From Escherichia phage GA2A: DNA of 40,470 nt. Location: sequence record NC_031943.1; one strand, written 5' to 3'. Under the pieces are notes generated by a model that was not told where the DNA came from, searched no databases, and worked only from the letters and a program-made list of their open reading frames with translations. Shown in pieces: positions 588 to 37,786 of the stretch (position 1 is the first letter of the stretch; every line of letters begins with the position of its first letter). The position numbers and the translations under genes were made by a program.

Positions 588-897
588 GATTTACCAAGCA
601 GCAAGACGCTACCAAGGACTGGCAGCAGGTACACTCTAAGCGCCTCACTAAGAGTAAATTGAGAGGTCGGGCTTCACCGAGTGAAGAAGGTCTGGTTGTC
701 GGATACTAAGTCACTACCTATAGCGCGGTGACAGACAAGGTTAGGAACTACCTAATACCTCGGAGGTTGACGACCTCAACGCTCTTTAACAATCTGGATA
801 AACTCTTAATGTGCGCCGATAGCGACTAACTACAGGGTCTTTGAGTCTACATCTGAAGGCCCTGACTGATAGTCACTAACTTAAATAGGGTAACATT

Positions 898-1074
898 ATG
901 AAAATCATAGCGATGAACGAAGAACTGGGCGTAATCTGGTACACGGCTACCGACTATAAATATCGCACTAAGCATGTGATAATCTACGGATTGACTAAGA
1001 CTGAGCACCAGAGCCGCAAGCAAGCGCAGGACGAGTTCAATAAGTGCCTGGACCATGCGTTCAACTGCCGGTGA
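898..1074 (+). CDS. Hypothetical early protein, 58 aa (first early ORF)
   Basis: ATG at 898 to TGA at 1072-1074; below the 60-aa track cutoff; preceded by conserved 22-bp leader repeat 860-881; no recognisable homolog. Confidence 0.35.
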   Translation: MKIIAMNEELGVIWYTATDYKYRTKHVIIYGLTKTEHQSRKQAQDEFNKCLDHAFNCR

Positions 1075-1137
1075 TTAACTACAGGTCGTTAACTCATAGC
1101 GGCCTGACTGATAGTCACTAACTATAGGATAAACAAG

Positions 1138-1939: not shown

Positions 1940-2015
1940 CTGCGAGTGATAGACGAGAGGCCATCGACTGATAGGTGGCCTCAAAGATTACCACTTAAAT
2001 TGATAGGAGTTAACT

Positions 2016-2722: not shown

Positions 2723-5404
2723 ATGAGCGTCATCTCTATTGACAAACATGACTTCTCTGATGTGTCGAACGCTATTGAGCCGTTTAACCTGCTGGCAGAC
2801 CACTACGGGCAAGACCTTGCAGTCAAACAACTTCAGCTTGAGCATGAGGCATACACTGAAGGCGAGCGACGTTTCATCAAGAACCTTGAGCGTCAGACTG
2901 AGCGCGGGGAACTGGCAGACAATCAGGTAGCTAAGCCTCTTATGCAGACTCTGGTCCCTAAGATTGCGCAAGCTGTCAAGGAGTGGCATGAAGGTCCAGA
3001 CGGGAAGCTGTCAACCTCTCGTCCGAGCGTAGCGTTCACCATGTTGAGCACTGAAGAGAAGGCCGTCAAGGACCGCTCTCTGCGCATCTCCTGTGAGTCT
3101 GCTGCGGTTATTATACTGAAGGTCATCCTCTCCAAGCTGGTCAAGCCTGAAGGGATACCGATTACACCAATGGCCTCCGCGATAGGGCGCACACTTGAGG
3201 ATGAAATCCGCTTCGGTCGCATCCGTGACAAGGAGCAGGAGCACTTCAAGAAGGCAATAGCTGAGAACCTGAACAAGCGGGCTGGGGCATCCTACAAGAA
3301 AGCCTACATGCAAGCGGTTGAGACCTCCATGCTGGAGCAAGGCCAGCTTGAAGATGCGTGGGGAACTTGGAGTCCGACCGAGGCTGTCCACGTTGGAATC
3401 AAGATGCTTGAGATTGTCATCCAGTCAACGCAACTGGTCGAGCTTAAGCGCTACGGTGCTGGCAATGCAGCGACTGACGTCGAGATGGTCCACCTGTCAG
3501 ACTTCTGGGTCAAGAAGATGGCACAACGAGGATTCAGCCTTGCGGGTATCGCTCCAGTCTACCAACCTTGCGTCGTGCCACCTAAGCCGTGGACTGGTGT
3601 AGTAGGCGGTGGGTACTGGGCCAAAGGTCGCAGACCGTTGCCATTGATTCGCTTAGGGTCTAAGTCTGCGGTGGCACGTTATGAAGATGTGTACATGCCT
3701 GAAGTATACGACGCTGTTAACATCATCCAGAATACACCTTGGAAAGTTAACAAGAAGGTGCTGGACGTGGTGAATATGGTCGAGAAGCTGAATAACACGC
3801 CTATTGACGACATCCCTCAGATGGAACCACTGAAGCCTGAAGACTATGCGGGAGAGACTGAAGAGGAACTCAAGGCATGGAAGAAAGCTGCTGCTGGTAT
3901 CTATCGCCGCGAGAAGGCCAGACAGTCACGCAGGTTGTCACTGAGCTTTATCGTTAACCAAGCGAACAAGTTCTCTCAGTTCAAGGCCATATGGTTCCCG
4001 TATAACATGGATTGGCGAGGCCGTGTCTACGCTGTCCCTATGTTCAACCCTCAAGGTAACGACATGCAGAAGGGTCTCCTGACTCTGGCAGTCGGCAAGC
4101 CTATTGGTGCTGACGGTTTTAAATGGCTGAAGGTCCACGGTGCAAACTGTGCGGGTGTTGATAAAGTCACCTTCGAGGAGCGCATCAAGTGGGTGGAAGA
4201 CAACCACGACAACATCATGACTGCTGCTAAGGCACCGATGGATAGCATTGAGTGGTGGGGCAAGTTAGACTCTCCGTTCTGCTTCCTAGCGTTCTGCTTC
4301 GAGTATGCTGGCGTAATGCACCACGGACTGTCCTACAACTGCTCGCTACCGATAGCGTTCGATGGGTCCTGCTCTGGTATTCAGCACTTCAGCGCGATGC
4401 TTCGTGACCACATCGGTGGACATGCAGTAAACCTGACGCCATCCGGTAAGGTACAGGACATCTACCGCATCGTATCTGACCGCATTGAGGAGGAGCTTAA
4501 AGTCCTGCTGATTAACGGTACGGACAACGAGATGGTAACGCACGAGGACAAGAAAACTGGTGAGATTACCGAGCGTCTCAAGCTGGGGACAAGAGAGCTG
4601 GCCCGTCAGTGGCTGACCTACGGTATGTCACGCAAGGTAACTAAGCGTTCGGTCATGACTCTGGCCTATGGGTCGAAAGAGTATGGCTTCGCAGACCAAG
4701 TTTACGAGGACATCGTGATGCCAGCGATTGACTCAGGGTCTGGCGCTATGTTCACTGAACCAAGCCAGGCGTCTCGCTTCATGGCTAAGATGATTTGGGA
4801 AGCAGTGAGTGTGACCGTAGTTGCTGCGGTTGACGCGATGAAGTGGCTTCAAGGTGCTGCCAAGCTGCTGGCTGCTGAAGTGAAGGACAAGAAGACTGGA
4901 GAAATCCTGAAGCCTTGCCTTCCAGTGCACTGGGTCACACCTGATGGTTTCCCTGTCTGGCAGGAATACCGCAAGAAGGATACCACTCGTCTTAACCTGA
5001 TGTTCTTAGGGTCGTTCAACCTTCAACCTACGGTCAACAAAGGGTCGAAGAAAGAGCTGGATAAGCACAAGCAGGAGTCCGGTATCAGCCCTAACTTTGT
5101 ACACTCACAGGACGGCAGTCACCTGAGGAAGACTGTGGTCCACACCCACAGCAAGTATGGCGTGATGTCCTTCGCGGTGATTCACGATAGCTTTGGGACT
5201 ATCCCTGCTGACGCTGAGTTCCTGTTCAAGGGTGTCCGTGAGACGATGGTCGAGACCTACCGCGACAACGATGTGCTGCAAGACTTCTACGAGCAGTTCG
5301 CGGACCAGCTTCACGAGACCCAGCGCGACAAGTTGCCTGAGTTACCGAAGCGCGGTAAACTGAACATCGAAGACATTCTGTCATCTGACTTTGCATTCGC
5401 CTAA
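2723..5404 (+). CDS. 1: T7-like single-subunit DNA-dependent RNA polymerase
   Basis: 893 aa versus 883 aa for T7 RNAP; C-terminus SSDFAFA matches the T7 RNAP C-terminal FAFA; conserved polymerase-core segments in the middle. Confidence 0.97.
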   Translation: MSVISIDKHDFSDVSNAIEPFNLLADHYGQDLAVKQLQLEHEAYTEGERRFIKNLERQTERGELADNQVAKPLMQTLVPKIAQAVKEWHEGPDGKLSTSRPSVAFTMLSTEEKAVKDRSLRISCESAAVIILKVILSKLVKPEGIPITPMASAIGRTLEDEIRFGRIRDKEQEHFKKAIAENLNKRAGASYKKAYMQAVETSMLEQGQLEDAWGTWSPTEAVHVGIKMLEIVIQSTQLVELKRYGAGNAATDVEMVHLSDFWVKKMAQRGFSLAGIAPVYQPCVVPPKPWTGVVGGGYWAKGRRPLPLIRLGSKSAVARYEDVYMPEVYDAVNIIQNTPWKVNKKVLDVVNMVEKLNNTPIDDIPQMEPLKPEDYAGETEEELKAWKKAAAGIYRREKARQSRRLSLSFIVNQANKFSQFKAIWFPYNMDWRGRVYAVPMFNPQGNDMQKGLLTLAVGKPIGADGFKWLKVHGANCAGVDKVTFEERIKWVEDNHDNIMTAAKAPMDSIEWWGKLDSPFCFLAFCFEYAGVMHHGLSYNCSLPIAFDGSCSGIQHFSAMLRDHIGGHAVNLTPSGKVQDIYRIVSDRIEEELKVLLINGTDNEMVTHEDKKTGEITERLKLGTRELARQWLTYGMSRKVTKRSVMTLAYGSKEYGFADQVYEDIVMPAIDSGSGAMFTEPSQASRFMAKMIWEAVSVTVVAAVDAMKWLQGAAKLLAAEVKDKKTGEILKPCLPVHWVTPDGFPVWQEYRKKDTTRLNLMFLGSFNLQPTVNKGSKKELDKHKQESGISPNFVHSQDGSHLRKTVVHTHSKYGVMSFAVIHDSFGTIPADAEFLFKGVRETMVETYRDNDVLQDFYEQFADQLHETQRDKLPELPKRGKLNIEDILSSDFAFA

Positions 5405-5695: not shown

Positions 5696-6169
5696 ATGTT
5701 CTTTAACTCCGCACTGAAAGCACGCATCGCAGAACTTGAACTCCACCTGAAGAACAGCGAGGAGCTGAACAACCATAAGTCAGCGACCATTGATAGCCTA
5801 CGGGCTGAGAAGACCAAGCTGGTGGACCGAGTGTCCTACCTTCAAGGCAAGAAAGCGCCAATCAAGGTTAAGCGGATGGTCGGACTGAAGTTCCGGGCGC
5901 TGTTAAACGGCCTCTATCAGCCTACCGAGTTCAAGACCGGGCCGGGCAACTGTGGGAAGAACGTTAAGCACTTCACTGTAACAAAGACCGACCGCACCCT
6001 GACCATCCACCAGCACCACGTTGACGACTCTCAGAAAGACTTCGAGTACCGACTGAGTGACATCGACGGTCGCATCCAGTATGACTATGAGATGGTGCAG
6101 GTTTACGGTGAGGAGGCAGAACAAGAGCGAGCACTTCAGGCGATGATTAGAAGACCACGCTTTGCCTAA
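5696..6169 (+). CDS. Hypothetical protein, 157 aa, N-terminal coiled-coil-like
   Basis: Track ORF; RBS AGAGG; its stop TAA is the first three bases of the next phage promoter; lies where T7 has its replication origin. Confidence 0.55.
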   Translation: MFFNSALKARIAELELHLKNSEELNNHKSATIDSLRAEKTKLVDRVSYLQGKKAPIKVKRMVGLKFRALLNGLYQPTEFKTGPGNCGKNVKHFTVTKTDRTLTIHQHHVDDSQKDFEYRLSDIDGRIQYDYEMVQVYGEEAEQERALQAMIRRPRFA

Positions 6170-6189
6170 ACTATCACTATAGGATTAGA
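6167..6189 (+). promoter_or_regulatory. Phage promoter (phi1.1 position)
   Basis: TAAACTATCACTATAGGA. Confidence 0.8.
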
Positions 6190-6228
6190 CTCAAGGTCAT
6201 GACTCAAAGTCGTGGCCTTCATGATTAA
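6186..6228 (+). promoter_or_regulatory. Conserved hairpin element, probable RNase III processing site (R1.1 position)
   Basis: TAGACTCAAGGTCAT...GTGGCCTTCATGATTA; one of three copies (also 13136-13186 and 37256-37298) at positions matching T7 R1.1, R3.8 and R18.5. Confidence 0.55.
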
Positions 6229-6253
6229 CCCTAAACTCAATCAGGAGCTACAC

Positions 6254-6433
6254 ATGTATCAGAACACCGTAAACTTCGAGCGCATCCGTGAACGTCAGCA
6301 GACTGAAGGATACATGCCGAAGGGCCGCAAGCTGAACAAGACTAAACGTGGCGGTGGCGTGAAGGGTGCTTTCCGTAACGCTGAGGGTAAAGACTCTCTG
6401 GTCAACCAAGAGAAGTATTTCGTAGGAGCGTAA
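6254..6433 (+). CDS. 1.1: gp1.1-like small basic protein
   Basis: KGRKLNKTKR matches T7 gp1.1; start taken at the ATG with RBS AGGAG rather than the track start 6212, which lies inside the hairpin element. Confidence 0.7.
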   Translation: MYQNTVNFERIRERQQTEGYMPKGRKLNKTKRGGGVKGAFRNAEGKDSLVNQEKYFVGA

Positions 6434-10938: not shown

Positions 10939-11154
10939 ATGATTAAACTTATCGAATTTCTTGGTCGTCTGGTGGTGCGTGGTTATCGTCGCGCTGCTGT
11001 TATGGAACGAAAGGTAGCAGAGAAGGCTGCTGACGGTGCGGCTGATGCTGCTGCTCTGGCTGATAAGCTGACCATCGCGTCACTTGAAGCTGGCATGAAG
11101 GCACGTCAGGCTGACACCAAAGCTGACCAGTTGGCCCAGTTCTTCAAAGCCTAA
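10939..11154 (+). CDS. Hypothetical protein, 71 aa
   Basis: Internal ATG of track ORF 10849-11154 with RBS AAAGGAG; stop TAA shared with next promoter. Confidence 0.5.
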   Translation: MIKLIEFLGRLVVRGYRRAAVMERKVAEKAADGAADAAALADKLTIASLEAGMKARQADTKADQLAQFFKA

Positions 11155-11174
11155 ACTATCACCTTAGGGATGGG
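11152..11174 (+). promoter_or_regulatory. Phage promoter before primase-helicase, variant core CACCTTAGG
   Basis: TAAACTATCACCTTAGGGA, followed by inverted repeat GGGACAATTAGTCCTGTCCC. Confidence 0.6.
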
Positions 11175-11219
11175 ACAATTAGTCCTGTCCCTTTGTTCGC
11201 ATTTGTGATTAAGGAGTGA

Positions 11220-12923
<1,704 letters not shown>

Positions 12924-12967: not shown

Positions 12968-13132
12968 ATGCTGCGAAAACTTAAAGCTCGATACCATCGG
13001 TTCATGTACAAATGGTGGAGCGATGAATCAACCTGCCTGTCGAACATTCTGGGAGACCAGCGGTTCAACTCTAAGGCATGGAAGAAAGCTAACCGGAAGT
13101 TCATGTATCACTTCTTGCGTACAGACTTCTAG
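12968..13132 (+). CDS. Hypothetical small basic protein, 54 aa
   Basis: Strong RBS AAGAGGAGAG 6 nt upstream of ATG; below track cutoff. Confidence 0.45.
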   Translation: MLRKLKARYHRFMYKWWSDESTCLSNILGDQRFNSKAWKKANRKFMYHFLRTDF

Positions 13133-13135
13133 GTC

Positions 13136-13186
13136 TAGACTCAAGGTCATTCACATCGAGTGACCTTTATGATTAGACTAAACGGA
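13136..13186 (+). promoter_or_regulatory. Conserved hairpin element, probable RNase III site (R3.8-like position)
   Basis: TAGACTCAAGGTCAT...GTGACCTTTATGATTA; second copy of the element. Confidence 0.55.
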
Positions 13187-13195
13187 GGATTAATA

Positions 13196-14068
13196 ATGAA
13201 GGTTCTAAGTCTGTTTGATGGAGTTGGTGGTGGATATCAAGCACTACGGCTTGCCGGGGTCCAAGTCTCTTCATACATCTCTTCAGAGATAGAAAAGAGC
13301 AGTATAAACATAGCAGCCCGTCATATACCTGACTACTTAAACCTAGGTGATGTTAGAGGGGTAAGAGGTGGTGACTACGACTTAATACTTGCCGGGTCTC
13401 CATGTCAAGGCTTTTCGTATGCAGGGAGGGGGCTTAACTTCAGTGATCCGCGCTCCTCACTCTTCTTCGAATTTGTCAGAATAGTCAGAGAATCATTAAT
13501 CTTTAACCCTGATGTTAAAATCTTCTTAGAGAACGTAAATATGCGTAGGGAGTGGAAGGATGTCATAACGTCAGAGCTGGGAATCAATCCAGTAGAAATA
13601 TGCGCATCCACATTATCACCTTTCCGTAGAAACCGATTATACTGGTTCAACTGGGAGTCAGCACCTGAAATAAAGACTGTCAGTTTCAAGGAGCTAACTG
13701 GTGGTTTACCATGTAGTATAGTTGGTAGACCACTTGACGAGAACCTTAAGAGGGTAGACGGAAAAGGCCTTCCGGTGGTTCAATGCATAGAGGTTACAAA
13801 TGGGGATATTGGAAGATGTGTAACTACGGTATCAAAAGACTCATGTGTATACCTAGGGGCTAATAGACCTCCGTCTAGAATACCTGATGCATATGGGGCT
13901 AATCGTAACTTATGGAGAGACCTTACTATATCCGAGCTGGAGGTGGGGCATGGGTATGACAGTGGGTTTTTTGATAATGTCAAGGAATCTACCGCCAGAA
14001 AGGCCATAGGAAACGGATGGAGCTTACAGGTTGTTTCTAGCATATTTAGAGGGCTAAACCATGTTTGA
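13196..14068 (+). CDS. DNA (cytosine-5)-methyltransferase, orphan
   Basis: Ordered C5-MTase motifs: I LFDGVGGG, IV GSPCQGFS, VI FLENV, VIII FRRNRLYWF, X IGNGWS; start at ATG 13196 with RBS GGAGG; visibly AT-richer than flanks; not present in T7. Confidence 0.85.
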   Translation: MKVLSLFDGVGGGYQALRLAGVQVSSYISSEIEKSSINIAARHIPDYLNLGDVRGVRGGDYDLILAGSPCQGFSYAGRGLNFSDPRSSLFFEFVRIVRESLIFNPDVKIFLENVNMRREWKDVITSELGINPVEICASTLSPFRRNRLYWFNWESAPEIKTVSFKELTGGLPCSIVGRPLDENLKRVDGKGLPVVQCIEVTNGDIGRCVTTVSKDSCVYLGANRPPSRIPDAYGANRNLWRDLTISELEVGHGYDSGFFDNVKESTARKAIGNGWSLQVVSSIFRGLNHV

Positions 14069-22310: not shown

Positions 22311-22333
22311 TAAACTATCACTATAGGGAGACC
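22311..22333 (+). promoter_or_regulatory. Phage promoter (phi10 position) with long 5' UTR
   Basis: TAAACTATCACTATAGGGAGA, closest to the canonical strong T7 class III start GGGAGA; ~105-nt leader with 8-bp inverted repeat TATTACTT/AAGTAATA. Confidence 0.85.
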
Positions 22334-22433
22334 AATAGACAGACTCAAGGTTTCCCTATTACTTCAGTCCATACGGATTGGGCGTACAGTAAGTAATAAA
22401 CTTTATCTTTCATTCGAATAGGAGAATTATCAT

Positions 22434-26978: not shown

Positions 26979-27005
26979 CTAATTGAATGGCCTATAGTTT
27001 CAACT

Positions 27006-27028
27006 TAACTATCACTATAGGGACTATA
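27006..27028 (+). promoter_or_regulatory. Phage promoter (phi13 position)
   Basis: TTAACTATCACTATAGGGA, flanked by inverted repeat GGCCTATAGT / ACTATAGGCC. Confidence 0.8.
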
Positions 27029-27052
27029 GGCCCTTTAAGTTATAGGAACTTT

Positions 27053-34778: not shown

Positions 34779-36788
34779 ATGGCTAACTCTACGCTGACAC
34801 AGTTCCCATCTGGTCAGGTTCGATATAAGATTAACTTCCCGTACCTCGCACGCGCGTTCGTGGTCGTCACTCTTGTGGTATCCACTGACCCAACGAAAGA
34901 CAGGGTGCTGGTAGTGGGGAATGACTATCGGTTCCTGAACGAGACGACCCTTGAGATTCTGGCAGACCAGACCGGGTTCGATATCATCCAGATTCACCGC
35001 TTCACGTCCACTGAACTGGTGGTTGACTTCCGTGACGGCTCAGTCCTGACTGCAAGTGACCTGTCCACCGCAGAGATTCAGGCCATCCACATCGCCGAAG
35101 AGGGCCGCGACCAGTCCATAAACCTTGCGTCTGGCTACGCTGAAGAAGCCAAGAAGTACGCTGACGAAGCTGGAGATGCTCTGGAGGGTATCAAAGATAT
35201 CGTTCAGGATGGGAACTTCGACTCGACCTTGCGTCAGGACCTTCGAAGCGATACAGGCCTTACTATGGTACACCGTAAGCTGCCGGACGTTGGGTCCGTT
35301 AACGTTGGATTGGACGCATTGTTCAGCAACATGCTTAACCCTGTGGACTTCGGTGCAGACCCTACTGGAAGTGTTGACTCCTACGCTGCGCTCCAGAAGT
35401 GGGCCGATGCCTGCACAGCTCGTGGATGGGCCTATGCTTACATCGCTGGCATCTTCAAGACCAGTCAGCCGATTACCTTCCGGGGACTTAAAGGCCTGAC
35501 CATCTACGGTCAATGCTATATCTACCCTACGTTCTCCTCTGGTGACTACGTGGTTGGCTTCTGTAATGGTACAGGTCTGCGCATCTATGGCCGATTCGAG
35601 GTCTCCGGACAGAACAAGCTCTATGTTAAGAGCGGTGTTAAAATCTGGTCAGACATGAACCCTAACGGTTTCTCGTTCAGCGACTTCTATGGGCTGTGTG
35701 TTTCTGATGCGGCTACAGGCATCACTCTTGGTGATACTCGTTATGCCAACGCGCTGCTGTCTGAGCTGTCATTCATTGGGAGCTACACGGTCGGGACTCC
35801 TTGTGCAATCCGTGCTATTGGTACTCAGTGCTACTTCAACACCATCGGATTTAACGCTGTAACTGGCGGGGCGGGCGACCTTGCTCAAATCACCCCATAC
35901 ACCTACCACCTGAAGGGCGCACAGCTTAAAATCATCGGCGGTGAGCTACAGCACAACGCGTCCATCTTCGGAGCTGGTGCGCTGGTTGAGCCTATCCTTG
36001 ACCCGGTTCACGGGAACACCTATGGTAACCTGACCATTGACCAGAACCACTTCGAGGTGGCTAGCCTGTGGGTAATGATTGCCAATCTGGATGGAGTACC
36101 AAACCCTATCAGCGCGCGCTCCACTGTTGCCTTGCTGGGACTCCACGGTTATCACAACCAAGACAATGGACCTGTAGTCCTAGTCCATGAGTCTGCTGAT
36201 GACTACCGTGGCACAATCGTTACGCGAGACATCTCCATGTACCGAAACGATGACCAGCCTACCCGTGTTAACATTAACATTCAGGCCCGCAACGCCTATG
36301 TTGACTACGACCGCAAAGGCTTCGGTAAAGGCTTCGTGAAAGGCCTTCAGGCTGTTCAGGGTGGCATCCTTAAGTTCGAGAAGGCGACCGTATGCATCGC
36401 TCAGAACTCCGTAGGTCAGACCCACACGACTACACCAAATAACGTCCTGTACACACAGTTCGTAGCCAACGGTGATACTGACCGCTGGTCTTCCAACTAC
36501 AATCCGGCGACTGGTGAGTTTACTGTTCCGGCTGGCGGACTCAAGGATGTTCATGTGGAGGCAACTGTAGAGGTTGCTAGCTCAAGTCAGGTTACAATGG
36601 CTGTGTACGTTGATAACGACCGCAAGAGCCTCGTTCAGACCCTGCCTATTGCTGGTCACACGTCAGCGTACTTAGGTCATCTCCCGGCAGGCGCTAAGAT
36701 TAGCGTTAAGTGTCAACTGGGTGCTGGCTCAGGTGCTGCTACCGGGTCAGGTCTCGACCGAATGATCATTACCGCTTCAAACTACTAA
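34779..36788 (+). CDS. 17: Tail fiber / tailspike with depolymerase-like C-terminal domain
   Basis: N-terminal ~150 aa match the T7 gp17 tail-attachment domain ([42 protein letters not shown]); the rest is unrelated to T7 and carries [23 protein letters not shown], typical of right-handed beta-helix polysaccharide depolymerases. Confidence 0.9.
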
Positions 36789-36796
36789 GGAGAGAG

Positions 36797-36991
36797 ATGA
36801 TTGAATTAGATTTTAAGAACGAGGTCTTAAAGGCCTCGCCTATCGTTGGGACGGCTGCTGCTGACGGTGCAAGTCGTTTCTTCCTTGGGCTCACTCTTAA
36901 CGAGTGGTTCTATGTGGCTGCGATTGCCTACACGGTGGTACAGATTGGTGTACTGATTTATAAAACCATTAAGAGCGGAGGTAAGACATGA
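36797..36991 (+). CDS. 17.5: Holin (class II)
   Basis: 64 aa; FYVAAIAYTVVQIG matches T7 gp17.5; RBS AAGGAGAGAG; start moved to the internal ATG of track ORF 36710-36991. Confidence 0.85.
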   Translation: MIELDFKNEVLKASPIVGTAAADGASRFFLGLTLNEWFYVAAIAYTVVQIGVLIYKTIKSGGKT

Positions 36992-37251
36992 CGCAGATGG
37001 ACTTAGAGAAGTTCCTGCTTATGCTGGACACTGAGCGTGCTCGCCTGATGTTGCAGGACTTGCGAGATGACTCCAAGCGTAACCCGCAGCTCTATAACTC
37101 CATTGAGAAACTTCTGGCTCGCCACAACTTTGTGTTAAGCAAGGTGTCTGTGGACGAGAAGACACTGGCTGACATGGAGGCACTGAACAAGGAGTACGAG
37201 AAGACCCTAAGTGAGTCCGAGGACAACGACACCGGGTATGGTGTTCAGTAA
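36988..37251 (+). CDS. 18: Terminase small subunit
   Basis: 87 aa versus 89; FLLMLDTERARLMLQDL...NPQLYNSIEKLLARH resembles T7 gp18. Confidence 0.9.
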   Translation: MTQMDLEKFLLMLDTERARLMLQDLRDDSKRNPQLYNSIEKLLARHNFVLSKVSVDEKTLADMEALNKEYEKTLSESEDNDTGYGVQ

Positions 37252-37255
37252 GTGT

Positions 37256-37298
37256 TAGACTCAAGGTCATTACTAATATGTAGTGGCCTTTATGATTA
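37256..37298 (+). promoter_or_regulatory. Conserved hairpin element, probable RNase III site (R18.5 position)
   Basis: TAGACTCAAGGTCAT...GTGGCCTTTATGATTA; third copy of the element. Confidence 0.55.
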
Positions 37299-37351
37299 AC
37301 ACACTACGAGAGGCGACTCTACGTGGATTCTTTAAAACGAGGAGGGCAACT

Positions 37352-37786
37352 ATGCTCGAACTTTTACGCAGGGCGCTCCCGTGGCTCGCAGCAGGACTCC
37401 TGTTCTGTTCCGGCTACTGGGTTGCCGACAAAAAGTGGGAGACCAAAGTAAATGCAGACTACATCACCAAACTGGAAGCTACTGAGAAGCAGCGCCGAGC
37501 AGTACAGTCAGAAGTCAACAAAGTTTCAAAAGACTTCCAGGACAAGCTCTCCGAAGTGGAGGGCTCTACTGATAGGGTTATTGCTGACCTTAACCGCGAT
37601 AACAAGCGGCTGCGCGTCAAAGTCAAAACATCAGGTGTCAGCGAGTCAGATTACCGTCGATGCTTCCCTGATGGAAAAGTCGAACTACACCCAGAGACTG
37701 CTAAAAGTCTTATCCGAATAACTCAGGAGGCAGACCTTAAGGAGCAGGCCTTGCAGGACACCATAAGGAGGTTGCGTGGCGAATAA
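37352..37786 (+). CDS. 18.5: Inner-membrane spanin (Rz-like)
   Basis: [13 protein letters not shown] helix, [24 protein letters not shown] and QDTIRRL match T7 gp18.5; RBS GAGGAGGG; start moved downstream of the hairpin element. Confidence 0.85.
37452..37721 (+). CDS. 18.7: Outer-membrane lipoprotein spanin (Rz1-like), embedded in the Rz gene in another frame
   Basis: [21 protein letters not shown] lipobox with Cys; resembles T7 gp18.7 (WKGALIGLFLICVATISGCAS). Confidence 0.7.
   Translation: MQTTSPNWKLLRSSAEQYSQKSTKFQKTSRTSSPKWRALLIGLLLTLTAITSGCASKSKHQVSASQITVDASLMEKSNYTQRLLKVLSE

What the first reader, a model, noticed from the sequence alone, without database searches (positions are those of the whole stretch)
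6186..6228. Conserved ~43-nt hairpin element in three copies creating false 'M-A/T-F-M-I' ORF starts
Copies at 6186-6228, 13136-13186 and 37256-37298 share TAGACTCAAGGTCAT, a variable loop, then GTG(G/A)CCTT(C/T)ATGATTA. The arms pair as RNA if G-U wobble is allowed. They lie before gene 1.1, before the methyltransferase gene, and before the spanin genes, matching T7 RNase III sites R1.1, R3.8 and R18.5. The embedded ATGATTA makes the six-frame track start three ORFs (6212, 13160, 37283) with MAFMI or MTFMI; the real starts are downstream at proper ribosome-binding sites. A partial copy (AGACTCAAGGT) follows the phi10 promoter at ~22345.
Basis: seen in the sequence. Interest (0 to 1): 0.5.

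Follow-up and report, generated by a model that had tools for sequence, protein, structure and literature searches.

The report
T7-type RNase III processing hairpins
The three repeated hairpins are this T7-like phage's copies of the well-known sites where the host enzyme RNase III cuts long phage messenger RNAs, so the finding is real but ordinary.

Summary
The window is the whole genome of a T7-like phage (Kayfunavirus, about 89-91% identical to known members). Each folds on the + (mRNA) strand into a 7-bp lower stem, a 4/5-nt internal loop and a 10-11-bp upper stem. Their arms are identical to T7 R1.1, the classic E. coli RNase III substrate.

A covariance model built from T7 sites and these copies recovers 8 of the 10 RNase III stem-loops annotated in T3, which was not used in training, with no extra hits. 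In the window it finds the three copies plus three weaker early-region members (816-883, 1065-1125, 1940-2001). All 36 related loci examined keep the hairpins, with compensatory changes in the stems.

One correction: copy 2 lies before the DNA polymerase region and corresponds to R4.7, not R3.8. The R3.8 homologue is at 11167-11191.

The MAFMI/MTFMI ORF starts are artefacts. There is no Shine-Dalgarno sequence upstream of them, and family profiles begin at the downstream ATGs. The frame to the downstream gene is not maintained in relatives, and the cut inferred from T7 falls inside the embedded AUG.

The phi10 "partial copy" is not a site of this kind. Cleavage itself is untested here.

The parts
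6180..6233 (+). Site 1, the R1.1 homologue. It is a hairpin directly downstream of the phage promoter at 6168-6183 and upstream of gene 1.1. The cut inferred from T7 R1.1 lies between U6222 and G6223, inside the embedded AUG at 6221-6223.
   Evidence: Fold of -20.2 kcal/mol, z = -4.5. Model hit at 6176-6238, 65.6 bits. Aligned with T7 phi1.1A/R1.1, T3 phi1.1/R1.1 and K1F. Kept in 8 of 8 related loci.
13132..13179 (+). Site 2, the R4.7 homologue (not R3.8). It is a hairpin after the gene 4.x ORFs and before the C5-methyltransferase and DNA polymerase genes. The inferred cut lies between U13170 and G13171.
   Evidence: Fold of -20.0 kcal/mol. Model hit at 13126-13186, 69.1 bits. Aligned with T3 and T7 R4.7. 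Kept in 16 of 16 related loci.
37252..37302 (+). Site 3, the R18.5 homologue. It is a hairpin between gene 18 (small terminase) and the Rz/Rz1 spanin genes. The inferred cut lies between U37293 and G37294.
   Evidence: Fold of -21.0 kcal/mol, z = -5.0. Model hit at 37246-37309, 68.4 bits. Kept in 12 of 12 related loci. T3 annotates R18.5 in the same position.
816..883 (+). Divergent early-region member before the first early gene (ATG at 898). This is the R0.3 position.
   Evidence: Model hit of 27.3 bits, E = 1.4e-5. Same two-stem fold, -22.9 kcal/mol. Syntenic hit in K1F at 704-771.
1065..1125 (+). Divergent early-region member between ORF 898-1074 and ORF 1138-1662. This is an R0.5-like position.
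   Evidence: Model hit of 37.1 bits, E = 1.3e-8. Fold of -21.8 kcal/mol. K1F hit at 1027-1088.
1940..2001 (+). Divergent early-region member after ORF 1814-1939.
   Evidence: Model hit of 31.1 bits, E = 9.5e-7. Fold of -21.6 kcal/mol. K1F hit at 1763-1824.
11167..11191 (+). R3.8-type leader stem-loop directly after phage promoter 11153-11168 and before gene 4 (ATG at 11223). This is the R3.8 homologue.
   Evidence: Shares CCCTTTGTTCGCATT with the T7 phi3.8 leader. Aligns with the stem_loop that T3 annotates as R3.8. Fold shown. The model does not cover this type; it also misses R3.8 in T7 and T3.
26989..27032 (+). Candidate R13-type site: a 13-bp perfect stem (26989-27001 with 27020-27032) that encloses phage promoter 27006-27021.
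   Evidence: Fold. T3's annotated R13 stem_loop likewise encloses phi13. This rests on position and structure only.
6168..6183 (+). Phage RNA polymerase promoter core, AAACTATCACTATAGG, one of 11 in the window. By analogy with T7-type promoters its transcript would start at about G6182, at the foot of hairpin 1.
   Evidence: Pattern search gave 11 matches against 0.25 expected.
6254..6433 (+). Gene 1.1, with its real start at ATG 6254 (SD AGGAG 6 nt upstream).
   Evidence: phrog_4383 aligns residues 1-59 to profile positions 1-58 of 58, and Pfam Phage_1_1 matches. tblastn to relatives starts at residue 1.
13196..14068 (+). C5 cytosine DNA methyltransferase, with its real start at ATG 13196 (SD GGAGG 7 nt upstream).
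   Evidence: Pfam DNA_methylase aligns residues 1-116 to profile positions 1-113. The one close homologue in GenBank is annotated from the same ATG.
37352..37786 (+). Rz-like i-spanin, with its real start at ATG 37352 (SD GAGGAGG 6 nt upstream). The embedded o-spanin gene lies at 37452-37721.
   Evidence: phrog_1327 aligns residues 1-143 to profile positions 1-153 of 158, and Pfam O_Spanin_T7 matches the embedded ORF. Relatives match from residue 1.
22325..22357 (+). phi10 leader hairpin (GGGAGACC...GGTTTCCC) that contains the 'partial copy' AGACTCAAGGT at 22342-22352. It is not a member of the R1.1-type family.
   Evidence: Fold of -13.5 kcal/mol. No 3' arm and no model hit here. K1F has GAGACTCAATGTTTCCC at this place.

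Best explanation
The three elements are RNA processing signals for the host's RNase III, orthologous to T7/T3 sites R1.1, R4.7 and R18.5.

**Proposed mechanism.** On the polycistronic + strand transcripts, each element folds into about two helical turns of dsRNA interrupted by an asymmetric internal loop. RNase III binds the upper stem and, because of the loop, cuts only one strand. By homology with T7 R1.1 the cut falls in CCUU(U/C)AU^GAUU.

**Consequences of the cut.**
- The upstream mRNA is left with a protective 3' hairpin.
- The downstream mRNA (gene 1.1/1.2; methyltransferase and DNA polymerase; spanins and large terminase) gets a new 5' end about 30-60 nt before its Shine-Dalgarno sequence.
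- The cut falls inside the embedded AUG, so processed mRNA cannot use it.

**Shown here:** sequence identity with a proven substrate, structure, covariation, synteny, conservation, and non-conservation of the ORF extension.

**Inferred:** actual cleavage, the exact bond cut, and the effects on mRNA stability and translation.
For: **Same sequence as a proven substrate**
- T7 R1.1 reads ACTCAAGGTCATTCGCAAGAGTGGCCTTTATGATTG. The window copies share ACTCAAGGTCAT... and ...GTGGCCTT(T/C)ATGATT.
- R1.1 RNA is cut by E. coli RNase III at a single bond (PMC4858673).
- Internal loops restrict cleavage to one strand and leave a protective 3' hairpin (PMC1540722).

**Same fold as the T7 sites**
- The window copies and eight of the ten T7 sites folded (all but R3.8 and R13) adopt the same two-stem, internal-loop structure.

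**Covariation**
- On A1, 95.4% of cells pair and 11 of 17 pairs change on both sides. No shuffle of 500 reached the observed values. Slid controls pair at only 26-49%.
- The 30-site alignment of five genomes gives the same picture.

**Model specificity**
- The model finds 8 of the 10 known T7 sites, including R6.5, which was not in training.
- In T3, which was not used in training, it finds 8 of the 10 annotated stem-loops. The coordinates coincide and there are no other hits at E < 1.
- The window copies score 66-69 bits.

**Synteny and conservation**
- K1F has the same six sites.
- 20 of 20 and 16 of 16 related loci keep the hairpins.

**Strand specificity**
- The U.G pairs exist only on the + strand, and the reverse complements fold less well.

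**The ORF extension is not real**
- Family profiles start at the downstream ATGs.
- There is no SD before the embedded AUG, and a strong SD before each real ATG.
- At site 3, 0 of 12 relatives are in frame. At site 1, 0 of 8 are open and in frame. At site 2, 7 of 16 are frameshifted or stopped.
Against: - No experimental data exist for this phage. Cleavage, the bond cut and any effect on expression are inferred by homology.
- The T7 cleavage coordinate (after U5887) is taken from my recollection of Dunn and Studier 1983, not from a tool result.
- No early gene of the size of the T7/T3 gene 0.7 kinase, which stimulates RNase III, was seen. Regulation of processing may therefore differ.
- T7 grows without RNase III (PMC6938266), so the sites are not essential in T7. 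Their selective value here is unproven.
- The host species, and so its RNase III specificity, is not known from the window.
Confidence: 0.9

Rival explanations
1. The GTG or ATG inside the hairpin is a real alternative start. It would give N-terminally extended gp1.1, methyltransferase and Rz, perhaps from unprocessed transcripts only.
For: In this window all three embedded AUGs are in frame with the downstream gene and have no stop between them. The joint chance expectation is about 0.006.
Against: - There is no Shine-Dalgarno sequence upstream of the embedded AUG, which sits in a stable structure.
- Family profiles begin at the downstream ATG.
- Frame and openness are not conserved. At site 3, 0 of 12 relatives are in frame. 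At site 1, 0 of 8 are open and in frame. At site 2, 1-nt indels and stops occur in 7 of 16.
- Curated annotations of CR44b and vB Seyj3-1 use the downstream ATGs.
- The cut inferred from T7 splits the AUG.
Confidence: 0.03
2. The repeats act mainly at the DNA level, as short conserved homology blocks for recombination and module or cargo exchange between T7-like phages. The RNA hairpin would be incidental.
For: - The same roughly 45-bp block occurs in 665 phage records across genera, some at other genome positions.
- The slot just 3' of site 2 carries different cargo in different phages: a methyltransferase, an HNH endonuclease or nothing.
Against: - The stems outside the conserved block covary so that pairing is kept while the sequence differs. 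That points to selection on structure, not on sequence identity.
- Pairing depends on U.G wobbles, which exist only in + strand RNA.
- The homologous T7 element is a proven RNase III substrate.
- The cargo junction is at the SD-to-ATG spacer, not in the hairpin.
Confidence: 0.04
3. The hairpins are structural RNA elements that are not cleaved. They could be transcription pause or termination signals, or stabilising hairpins or protein-binding operators that work without RNase III.
For: - They are stable hairpins in intercistronic positions.
- One begins at about +1 of a phage-promoter transcript.
Against: - There is no U-tract, and the scan found no terminator-like site around site 3.
- The internal-loop architecture and sequence are those of cleaved T7 and T3 sites.
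- No Rfam family matches.
Confidence: 0.03

Closest known systems
Bacteriophage T7 RNase III processing site R1.1 (Dunn and Studier 1983; the model substrate of the Nicholson laboratory)
   Same: - Both arms and both strands of the internal loop are identical or nearly so (ACUCAAGGUCAU... and ...GUGGCCUU(U/C)AUGAUU).
- The two-stem architecture is the same.
- Site 1 sits directly after a phage promoter and before gene 1.1, as in T7.
   Different: - The terminal loop and the upper two or three pairs of the upper stem differ, and so does the lower-stem sequence; both keep pairing through compensatory changes.
- The window has extra genes between gene 1 and the promoter, including a T3 1.05-like gene.
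- The window has one promoter here, where T7 has phi1.1A and phi1.1B.
- Cleavage has not been shown for this phage.
T3 and T7 site R4.7
   Same: Site 2 lies after the gene 4 region and upstream of DNA polymerase, as the annotated T3 stem_loop does (12970-13018, before gene 5 at 13043). The motif CTCAAGGTC...GGTGGCCTT(T/C)ATGA is shared.
   Different: - In the window a C5-methyltransferase gene sits between the hairpin and gene 5. T7 has gene 4.7 and phi4.7 there, and CR44b has an HNH gene.
T3 and T7 site R18.5
   Same: Site 3 lies between gene 18 and the Rz/Rz1 genes (18.5 and 18.7), as the T3 stem_loop at 35038-35088 does. The architecture is the same.
   Different: The window copy is closer in sequence to T7 R1.1 than to T7 R18.5, which reads AAGGCCAC...GUGGUCUUUAUGGAU.
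Coliphage K1F (type species of Kayfunavirus)
   Same: The model gives six hits at syntenic positions in K1F: 704, 1027, 1763, 5563, 12850 and 36443.
   Different: - The K1F GenBank record does not annotate them.
- K1F has no methyltransferase after site 2.
- I could not read the K1F genome paper.

Membership tests
T7-group RNase III processing site (R1.1 type) | About two helical turns of dsRNA in two coaxial stems, separated by an asymmetric internal loop (4 nt on the 5' side, 5 nt on the 3' side) | tested here: met
   The centroid folds of all three copies have a 7-bp lower stem, a 4/5-nt loop and a 10-11-bp upper stem. T7 R0.3, R0.5, R1.1, R4.7, R6.5 and R18.5 fold the same way.
T7-group RNase III processing site (R1.1 type) | Conserved arm sequences CUCAAGGUC(A/G)... 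and ...GGCCUU(U/C)AUGAUU, shared with experimentally cleaved sites | tested here: met
   The arms are identical to T7 R1.1. The motif hits in T7 fall at seven of the known R sites (R0.3, R0.5, R1.1, R1.3, R4.7, R6.5 and R18.5). Alignment A1 shows the shared columns.
T7-group RNase III processing site (R1.1 type) | Pairing maintained by compensatory substitutions among paralogues and orthologues | tested here: met
   11 of 17 pairs (A1) and 12 of 17 pairs (A7) change on both sides, with about 95% of cells paired. No shuffle of 500 reached the observed values, and slid controls pair at 49% or less. A7 was fitted to the model, which favours the structure.
T7-group RNase III processing site (R1.1 type) | Scores as a family member with a model that separates annotated sites from background | tested here: met
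   The window copies score 66-69 bits. In T3, which was not used in training, 8 of the 10 annotated stem-loops are found with no other hit at E < 1.
T7-group RNase III processing site (R1.1 type) | Intercistronic position on the transcribed strand, syntenic with named T7/T3 sites | tested here: met
   Site 1 is in the R1.1 position, site 2 in the R4.7 position (not R3.8) and site 3 in the R18.5 position.
T7-group RNase III processing site (R1.1 type) | Absence of antideterminant base pairs in the proximal and distal boxes | not tested
   I did not apply the published exclusion tables. Indirectly, the upper stem next to the loop is identical to that of T7 R1.1 in 8 bp (copy 1), 9 bp (copy 3), or all 10 bp but one (copy 2).
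T7-group RNase III processing site (R1.1 type) | Single-bond cleavage by host RNase III in vivo or in vitro | not testable with these tools
   This needs end mapping in wild-type and rnc hosts, or an in-vitro cleavage assay.
Genuine upstream translation start (N-terminal extension) | A Shine-Dalgarno sequence at proper spacing, with frame and open reading conserved among relatives | tested here: not met
   There is no SD. Frame or openness is lost in 12 of 12 relatives at site 3, 8 of 8 at site 1 and 7 of 16 at site 2. Family profiles begin at the downstream ATG.
Intrinsic transcription terminator | A GC-rich hairpin followed by a U-tract | tested here: not met
   The hairpins are followed by GAUUA(A/G)..., and the scan found no terminator-like site in 36900-37500. 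Only site 3 was scanned; the tails of the other two were read directly.

The most novel reading that the evidence does not exclude
In this phage alone among those compared, all three embedded AUGs are open and in frame with the downstream genes (joint chance about 0.006). Transcripts that escape RNase III could then be translated into N-terminally extended gp1.1, methyltransferase and Rz spanin. Cleavage, which cuts inside the AUG, would act as a switch between the two isoforms.
Probability: 0.03. Interest if true: 0.4.

Novelty: already known. Interest (0 to 1): 0.1.

Why it matters
These are textbook elements. They matter mainly for annotation. Marking them stops gene callers from starting gene 1.1, the methyltransferase gene and the spanin gene inside the hairpin. 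It also gives the transcript map of a new Kayfunavirus: six R1.1-type sites, an R3.8-type site and a candidate R13-type site. The covariance model built here could annotate such sites across the T7-like subfamily Studiervirinae, where GenBank records rarely mark them (they are annotated in T3 but not in K1F or CR44b).

Tried and rejected
- **Rfam.** The whole window gave no family at gathering thresholds, so it did not help here.
- **IMG/VR scan with the 14-mer of the 5' arm alone.** This returned mostly chance matches: 96 of 122 lacked the 3' arm. The other 26 were used as variants.
- **Other near matches in the window.** These are the 15-mer matches at 3112 (+), 7370 (-), 20015 (-) and 22003 (-) and the 3'-arm-like matches at 12399 and 20731. 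The two 3'-arm-like matches lack a full 5' arm. None of the six gives a model hit, so I rejected them as chance.
- **Missing T7-type sites.** The model found no R1, R1.3 or R6.5 equivalent in the window, although it detects all three in T7 and T3. Folds around promoter 18097 and upstream of gene 1 were not distinctive, with z = 0.08 and -1.67.
- **Literature.** I found no paper on RNase III sites in K1F or Kayfunavirus in the held library. The K1F genome paper could not be opened.
- **T7 record.** V01146 does not annotate RNase III sites. I used the T3 record instead.
- **T7 locus file.** L002 (the T7 genome) was not in the scripting sandbox, so I used the search and fold tools on it directly.

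Full report
**What the window is.** The 40,470-bp window is a complete T7-like phage genome. All long ORFs lie on the + strand. It carries eleven copies of a phage-polymerase promoter core, AAACTATCACTATAGG, against 0.25 expected by chance. Its closest relatives in GenBank are Kayfunavirus (K1F-like) phages of Escherichia, Salmonella, Citrobacter, Enterobacter and Klebsiella, at about 88-91% identity.

TAGACTCAAGGTCAT occurs exactly at 6186, 13136 and 37256. GTGRCCTTYATGATTA occurs exactly at 6212, 13160 and 37283. Both are far above the shuffle expectation. Each copy folds on the + strand into a 7-bp lower stem, a 4-nt/5-nt internal loop and a 10-11-bp upper stem with a variable terminal loop. 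The free energies are -20.2, -20.0 and -21.0 kcal/mol, with z-scores of -4.2 to -5.0. In line with that, the reverse complements fold less well, at -17.0, -15.1 and -12.3 kcal/mol. The structure therefore belongs to the sense RNA.

**What the copies are.** The T7 phi1.1A leader reads GAGGGACAAACTCAAGGTCATTCGCAAGAGTGGCCTTTATGATTGACC. This is the R1.1 RNase III substrate, and both of its arms are identical to the window copies. T7 R0.3, R0.5, R4.7, R6.5 and R18.5 carry variants of the same arms and adopt the same fold.

I aligned the 3 window copies, 7 T7 sites and 8 IMG/VR variants (A1). On the two-stem structure, 95.4% of cells pair and 11 of 17 pairs change on both sides. All 7 lower-stem pairs are among them. 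No shuffle of 500 reached the observed values, and sliding the partner by 1-3 columns dropped pairing to 26-49%.

**How specific the model is.** A covariance model built from this alignment (R1) was checked on two well-studied genomes.
- In T7 it finds 8 of the 10 known sites, including R6.5, which was not in the training set. It misses only the atypical R3.8 and R13.
- In T3, which was not used at all, the GenBank record annotates ten "RNase III recognition site" stem-loops. The model finds eight of them at coinciding coordinates and nothing else at E < 1.

**The family in the window is larger than reported.** With filters off, the model scores the three copies at 65.6-69.1 bits. It also finds three divergent members in the early region:
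- 1065-1125, at 37.1 bits;
- 1940-2001, at 31.1 bits;
- 816-883, at 27.3 bits.

These three fold in the same way. They lie downstream of a strong sigma-70-like promoter at 558-587, as the T7 and T3 early sites do. K1F has the same six sites at syntenic positions.

Two further T7-type sites of other shapes are probably present:
- an R3.8-type leader stem-loop at 11167-11191, following promoter 11153-11168, which shares CCCTTTGTTCGCATT with T7 and aligns with T3's annotated R3.8;
- a 13-bp stem, 26989-27001 with 27020-27032, enclosing promoter 27006-27021, as T3's R13 encloses phi13.

No R1, R1.3 or R6.5 equivalent was found.

**Which named sites the three copies match.**
- Site 1 follows promoter 6168-6183 and precedes gene 1.1 (Pfam Phage_1_1) and gene 1.2. 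This matches T7 phi1.1A/R1.1 and T3 phi1.1/R1.1, down to a T3 gene 1.05-like ORF just upstream.
- Site 3 lies between gene 18 (small terminase) and the Rz/Rz1 spanin genes, which is the R18.5 position.
- Site 2 lies after the primase/helicase gene and its small trailing ORFs, and before the methyltransferase and DNA polymerase genes. In T3 the stem-loop just before gene 5 is R4.7 (12970-13018), and T7 R4.7 aligns as well.

**Conservation in relatives.** All 12 related loci found with the spanin protein and all 8 found with gp1.2 keep the hairpin in place. So do all 16 loci found with the small ORF upstream of site 2. A five-genome alignment of 30 sites again shows 95% pairing, with 12 of 17 pairs changed on both sides. 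That alignment was fitted to the model, which favours the structure.

**The ORF starts are artefacts.** The GTG-initiated ORFs at 6212, 13160 and 37283 are real entries in the mechanical ORF list, but four lines of evidence argue against them.
- Family profiles begin at the downstream ATGs. phrog_4383 aligns residues 1-59 to profile positions 1-58 of 58. phrog_1327 aligns from residue 1. Pfam DNA_methylase aligns residues 1-116 to profile positions 1-113.
- Those ATGs (6254, 13196, 37352) have AGGAG, GGAGG and GAGGAGG 6-7 nt upstream. The embedded AUG has no Shine-Dalgarno sequence and sits in the structure.
- The frame is not maintained in relatives. At site 3, 0 of 12 are in frame, with spacers of 58 or 62 nt against 60 here. 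At site 1, 0 of 8 are both in frame and open. At site 2, the 9 relatives that keep the same 27-nt spacer are in frame, and the other 7 have a 1-nt indel or a stop.
- Curated records start the genes at the downstream ATGs.

By homology with T7 R1.1, the cut falls in CCUUUAU^GAUU. That places it between 6222 and 6223, 13170 and 13171, and 37293 and 37294, inside the embedded AUG. The T7 coordinate 5887 comes from my recollection of Dunn and Studier 1983. The single-bond cleavage of R1.1 RNA into 47-nt and 13-nt products is documented in PMC4858673.

It is a curiosity that in this window all three embedded AUGs are open and in frame, with a joint chance of about 0.006. This was noticed after the fact and is not conserved.

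**The phi10 "partial copy".** AGACTCAAGGT at 22342-22352 lies in the loop and 3' arm of the leader hairpin GGGAGACC...GGTTTCCC, which resembles the T7 phi10 and phi3.8 leaders. It has no CCTTYATGA partner and gives no model hit. K1F has GAGACTCAATGTTTCCC at this place. It is not a member of the family.

**Mechanism.** These statements come from established knowledge of T7, cited where I could read it.
- T7 early and late polycistronic transcripts are cut by host RNase III at specific hairpins (PMC4858673; PMC6938266).
- Internal loops limit the cut to one strand. The 3' hairpin that remains protects the upstream mRNA from 3'-5' exonucleases (PMC1540722).
- T7 grows without RNase III, so the sites tune expression rather than being essential.

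For this phage, cleavage is inferred, not shown. No early gene of the size of the T7/T3 gene 0.7 kinase, which stimulates RNase III, was seen.

**Rivals.**
- A genuine upstream start is refuted by the comparison with relatives.
- A DNA-level recombination role does not explain the compensatory changes or the strand-specific wobble pairs.
- A terminator role lacks a U-tract.

**Verdict.** These elements are already known from T7 and T3, so interest is low. The practical value is for annotation.

Noticed in passing
13184-14068: The C5 cytosine methyltransferase gene is a rare cargo in a T7-like phage. Only one other phage record, Salmonella phage vB Seyj3-1, has it, at 99% amino-acid identity. 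Every other hit is below 40% and lies in unrelated large phages. The gene is inserted exactly between the old gene 5 Shine-Dalgarno sequence (GGAGGATTAA|) and the gene 5 start (|AACCATGTTTGAC, with ATG at 14061). It therefore uses the gene 5 leader. Relatives carry an HNH endonuclease or nothing in this slot.
   Followed up: partly
6221-6254, 13169-13196, 37292-37352: All three embedded AUGs are open and in frame with the downstream gene in this genome. The joint chance is about 0.006. None of the 12 relatives at site 3 or the 8 at site 1 shares this. It is probably coincidence, since it was noticed after the fact.
   Followed up: yes
26989-27032: A perfect 13-bp inverted repeat encloses phage promoter 27006-27021 just before gene 13. 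It resembles the T3 and T7 R13 site that encloses phi13.
   Followed up: partly
11153-11222: The promoter is followed by a leader stem-loop and the conserved CCCTTTGTTCGCATT before gene 4. This is homologous to the T7 and T3 phi3.8/R3.8 region and is the R3.8 equivalent.
   Followed up: yes
13110-13140; L153, L155-L158: In more distant relatives a phage promoter (for example CACTGTAGGATAGACTC) sits directly 5' of hairpin 2. The window and its close relatives have a degenerate version (CTTCTAGGTCTAGACTC) that overlaps the stop codon of the 54-aa ORF at 12968-13132.
   Followed up: partly
898-2625: The early region has only short ORFs, all of them in PHROG families of unknown function. None is the size of the gene 0.7 protein kinase, which in T7 phosphorylates and stimulates RNase III.
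   Followed up: partly
2634-2722: A phage-type promoter (TAACTATCACTATAGG at 2634) lies upstream of the RNA polymerase gene itself. It is followed by direct repeats of AAGTGAAAGAC. There is no RNase III-type hairpin here, unlike R1 in T7 and T3.
   Followed up: no
190-300: The left end contains tandem copies of CCAACCTACAGTCTAA. I take these to be the concatemer-junction or terminal-repeat-adjacent repeats typical of T7-like genomes.
   Followed up: no
34779-36788: The tail fibre or spike gene encodes 669 aa. Only the N-terminal roughly 140 aa match T7-like adaptor domains, and the C-terminal part matches other tail-protein families. K1F carries a 1064-aa endosialidase here, so the host receptor specificity differs.
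   Followed up: no
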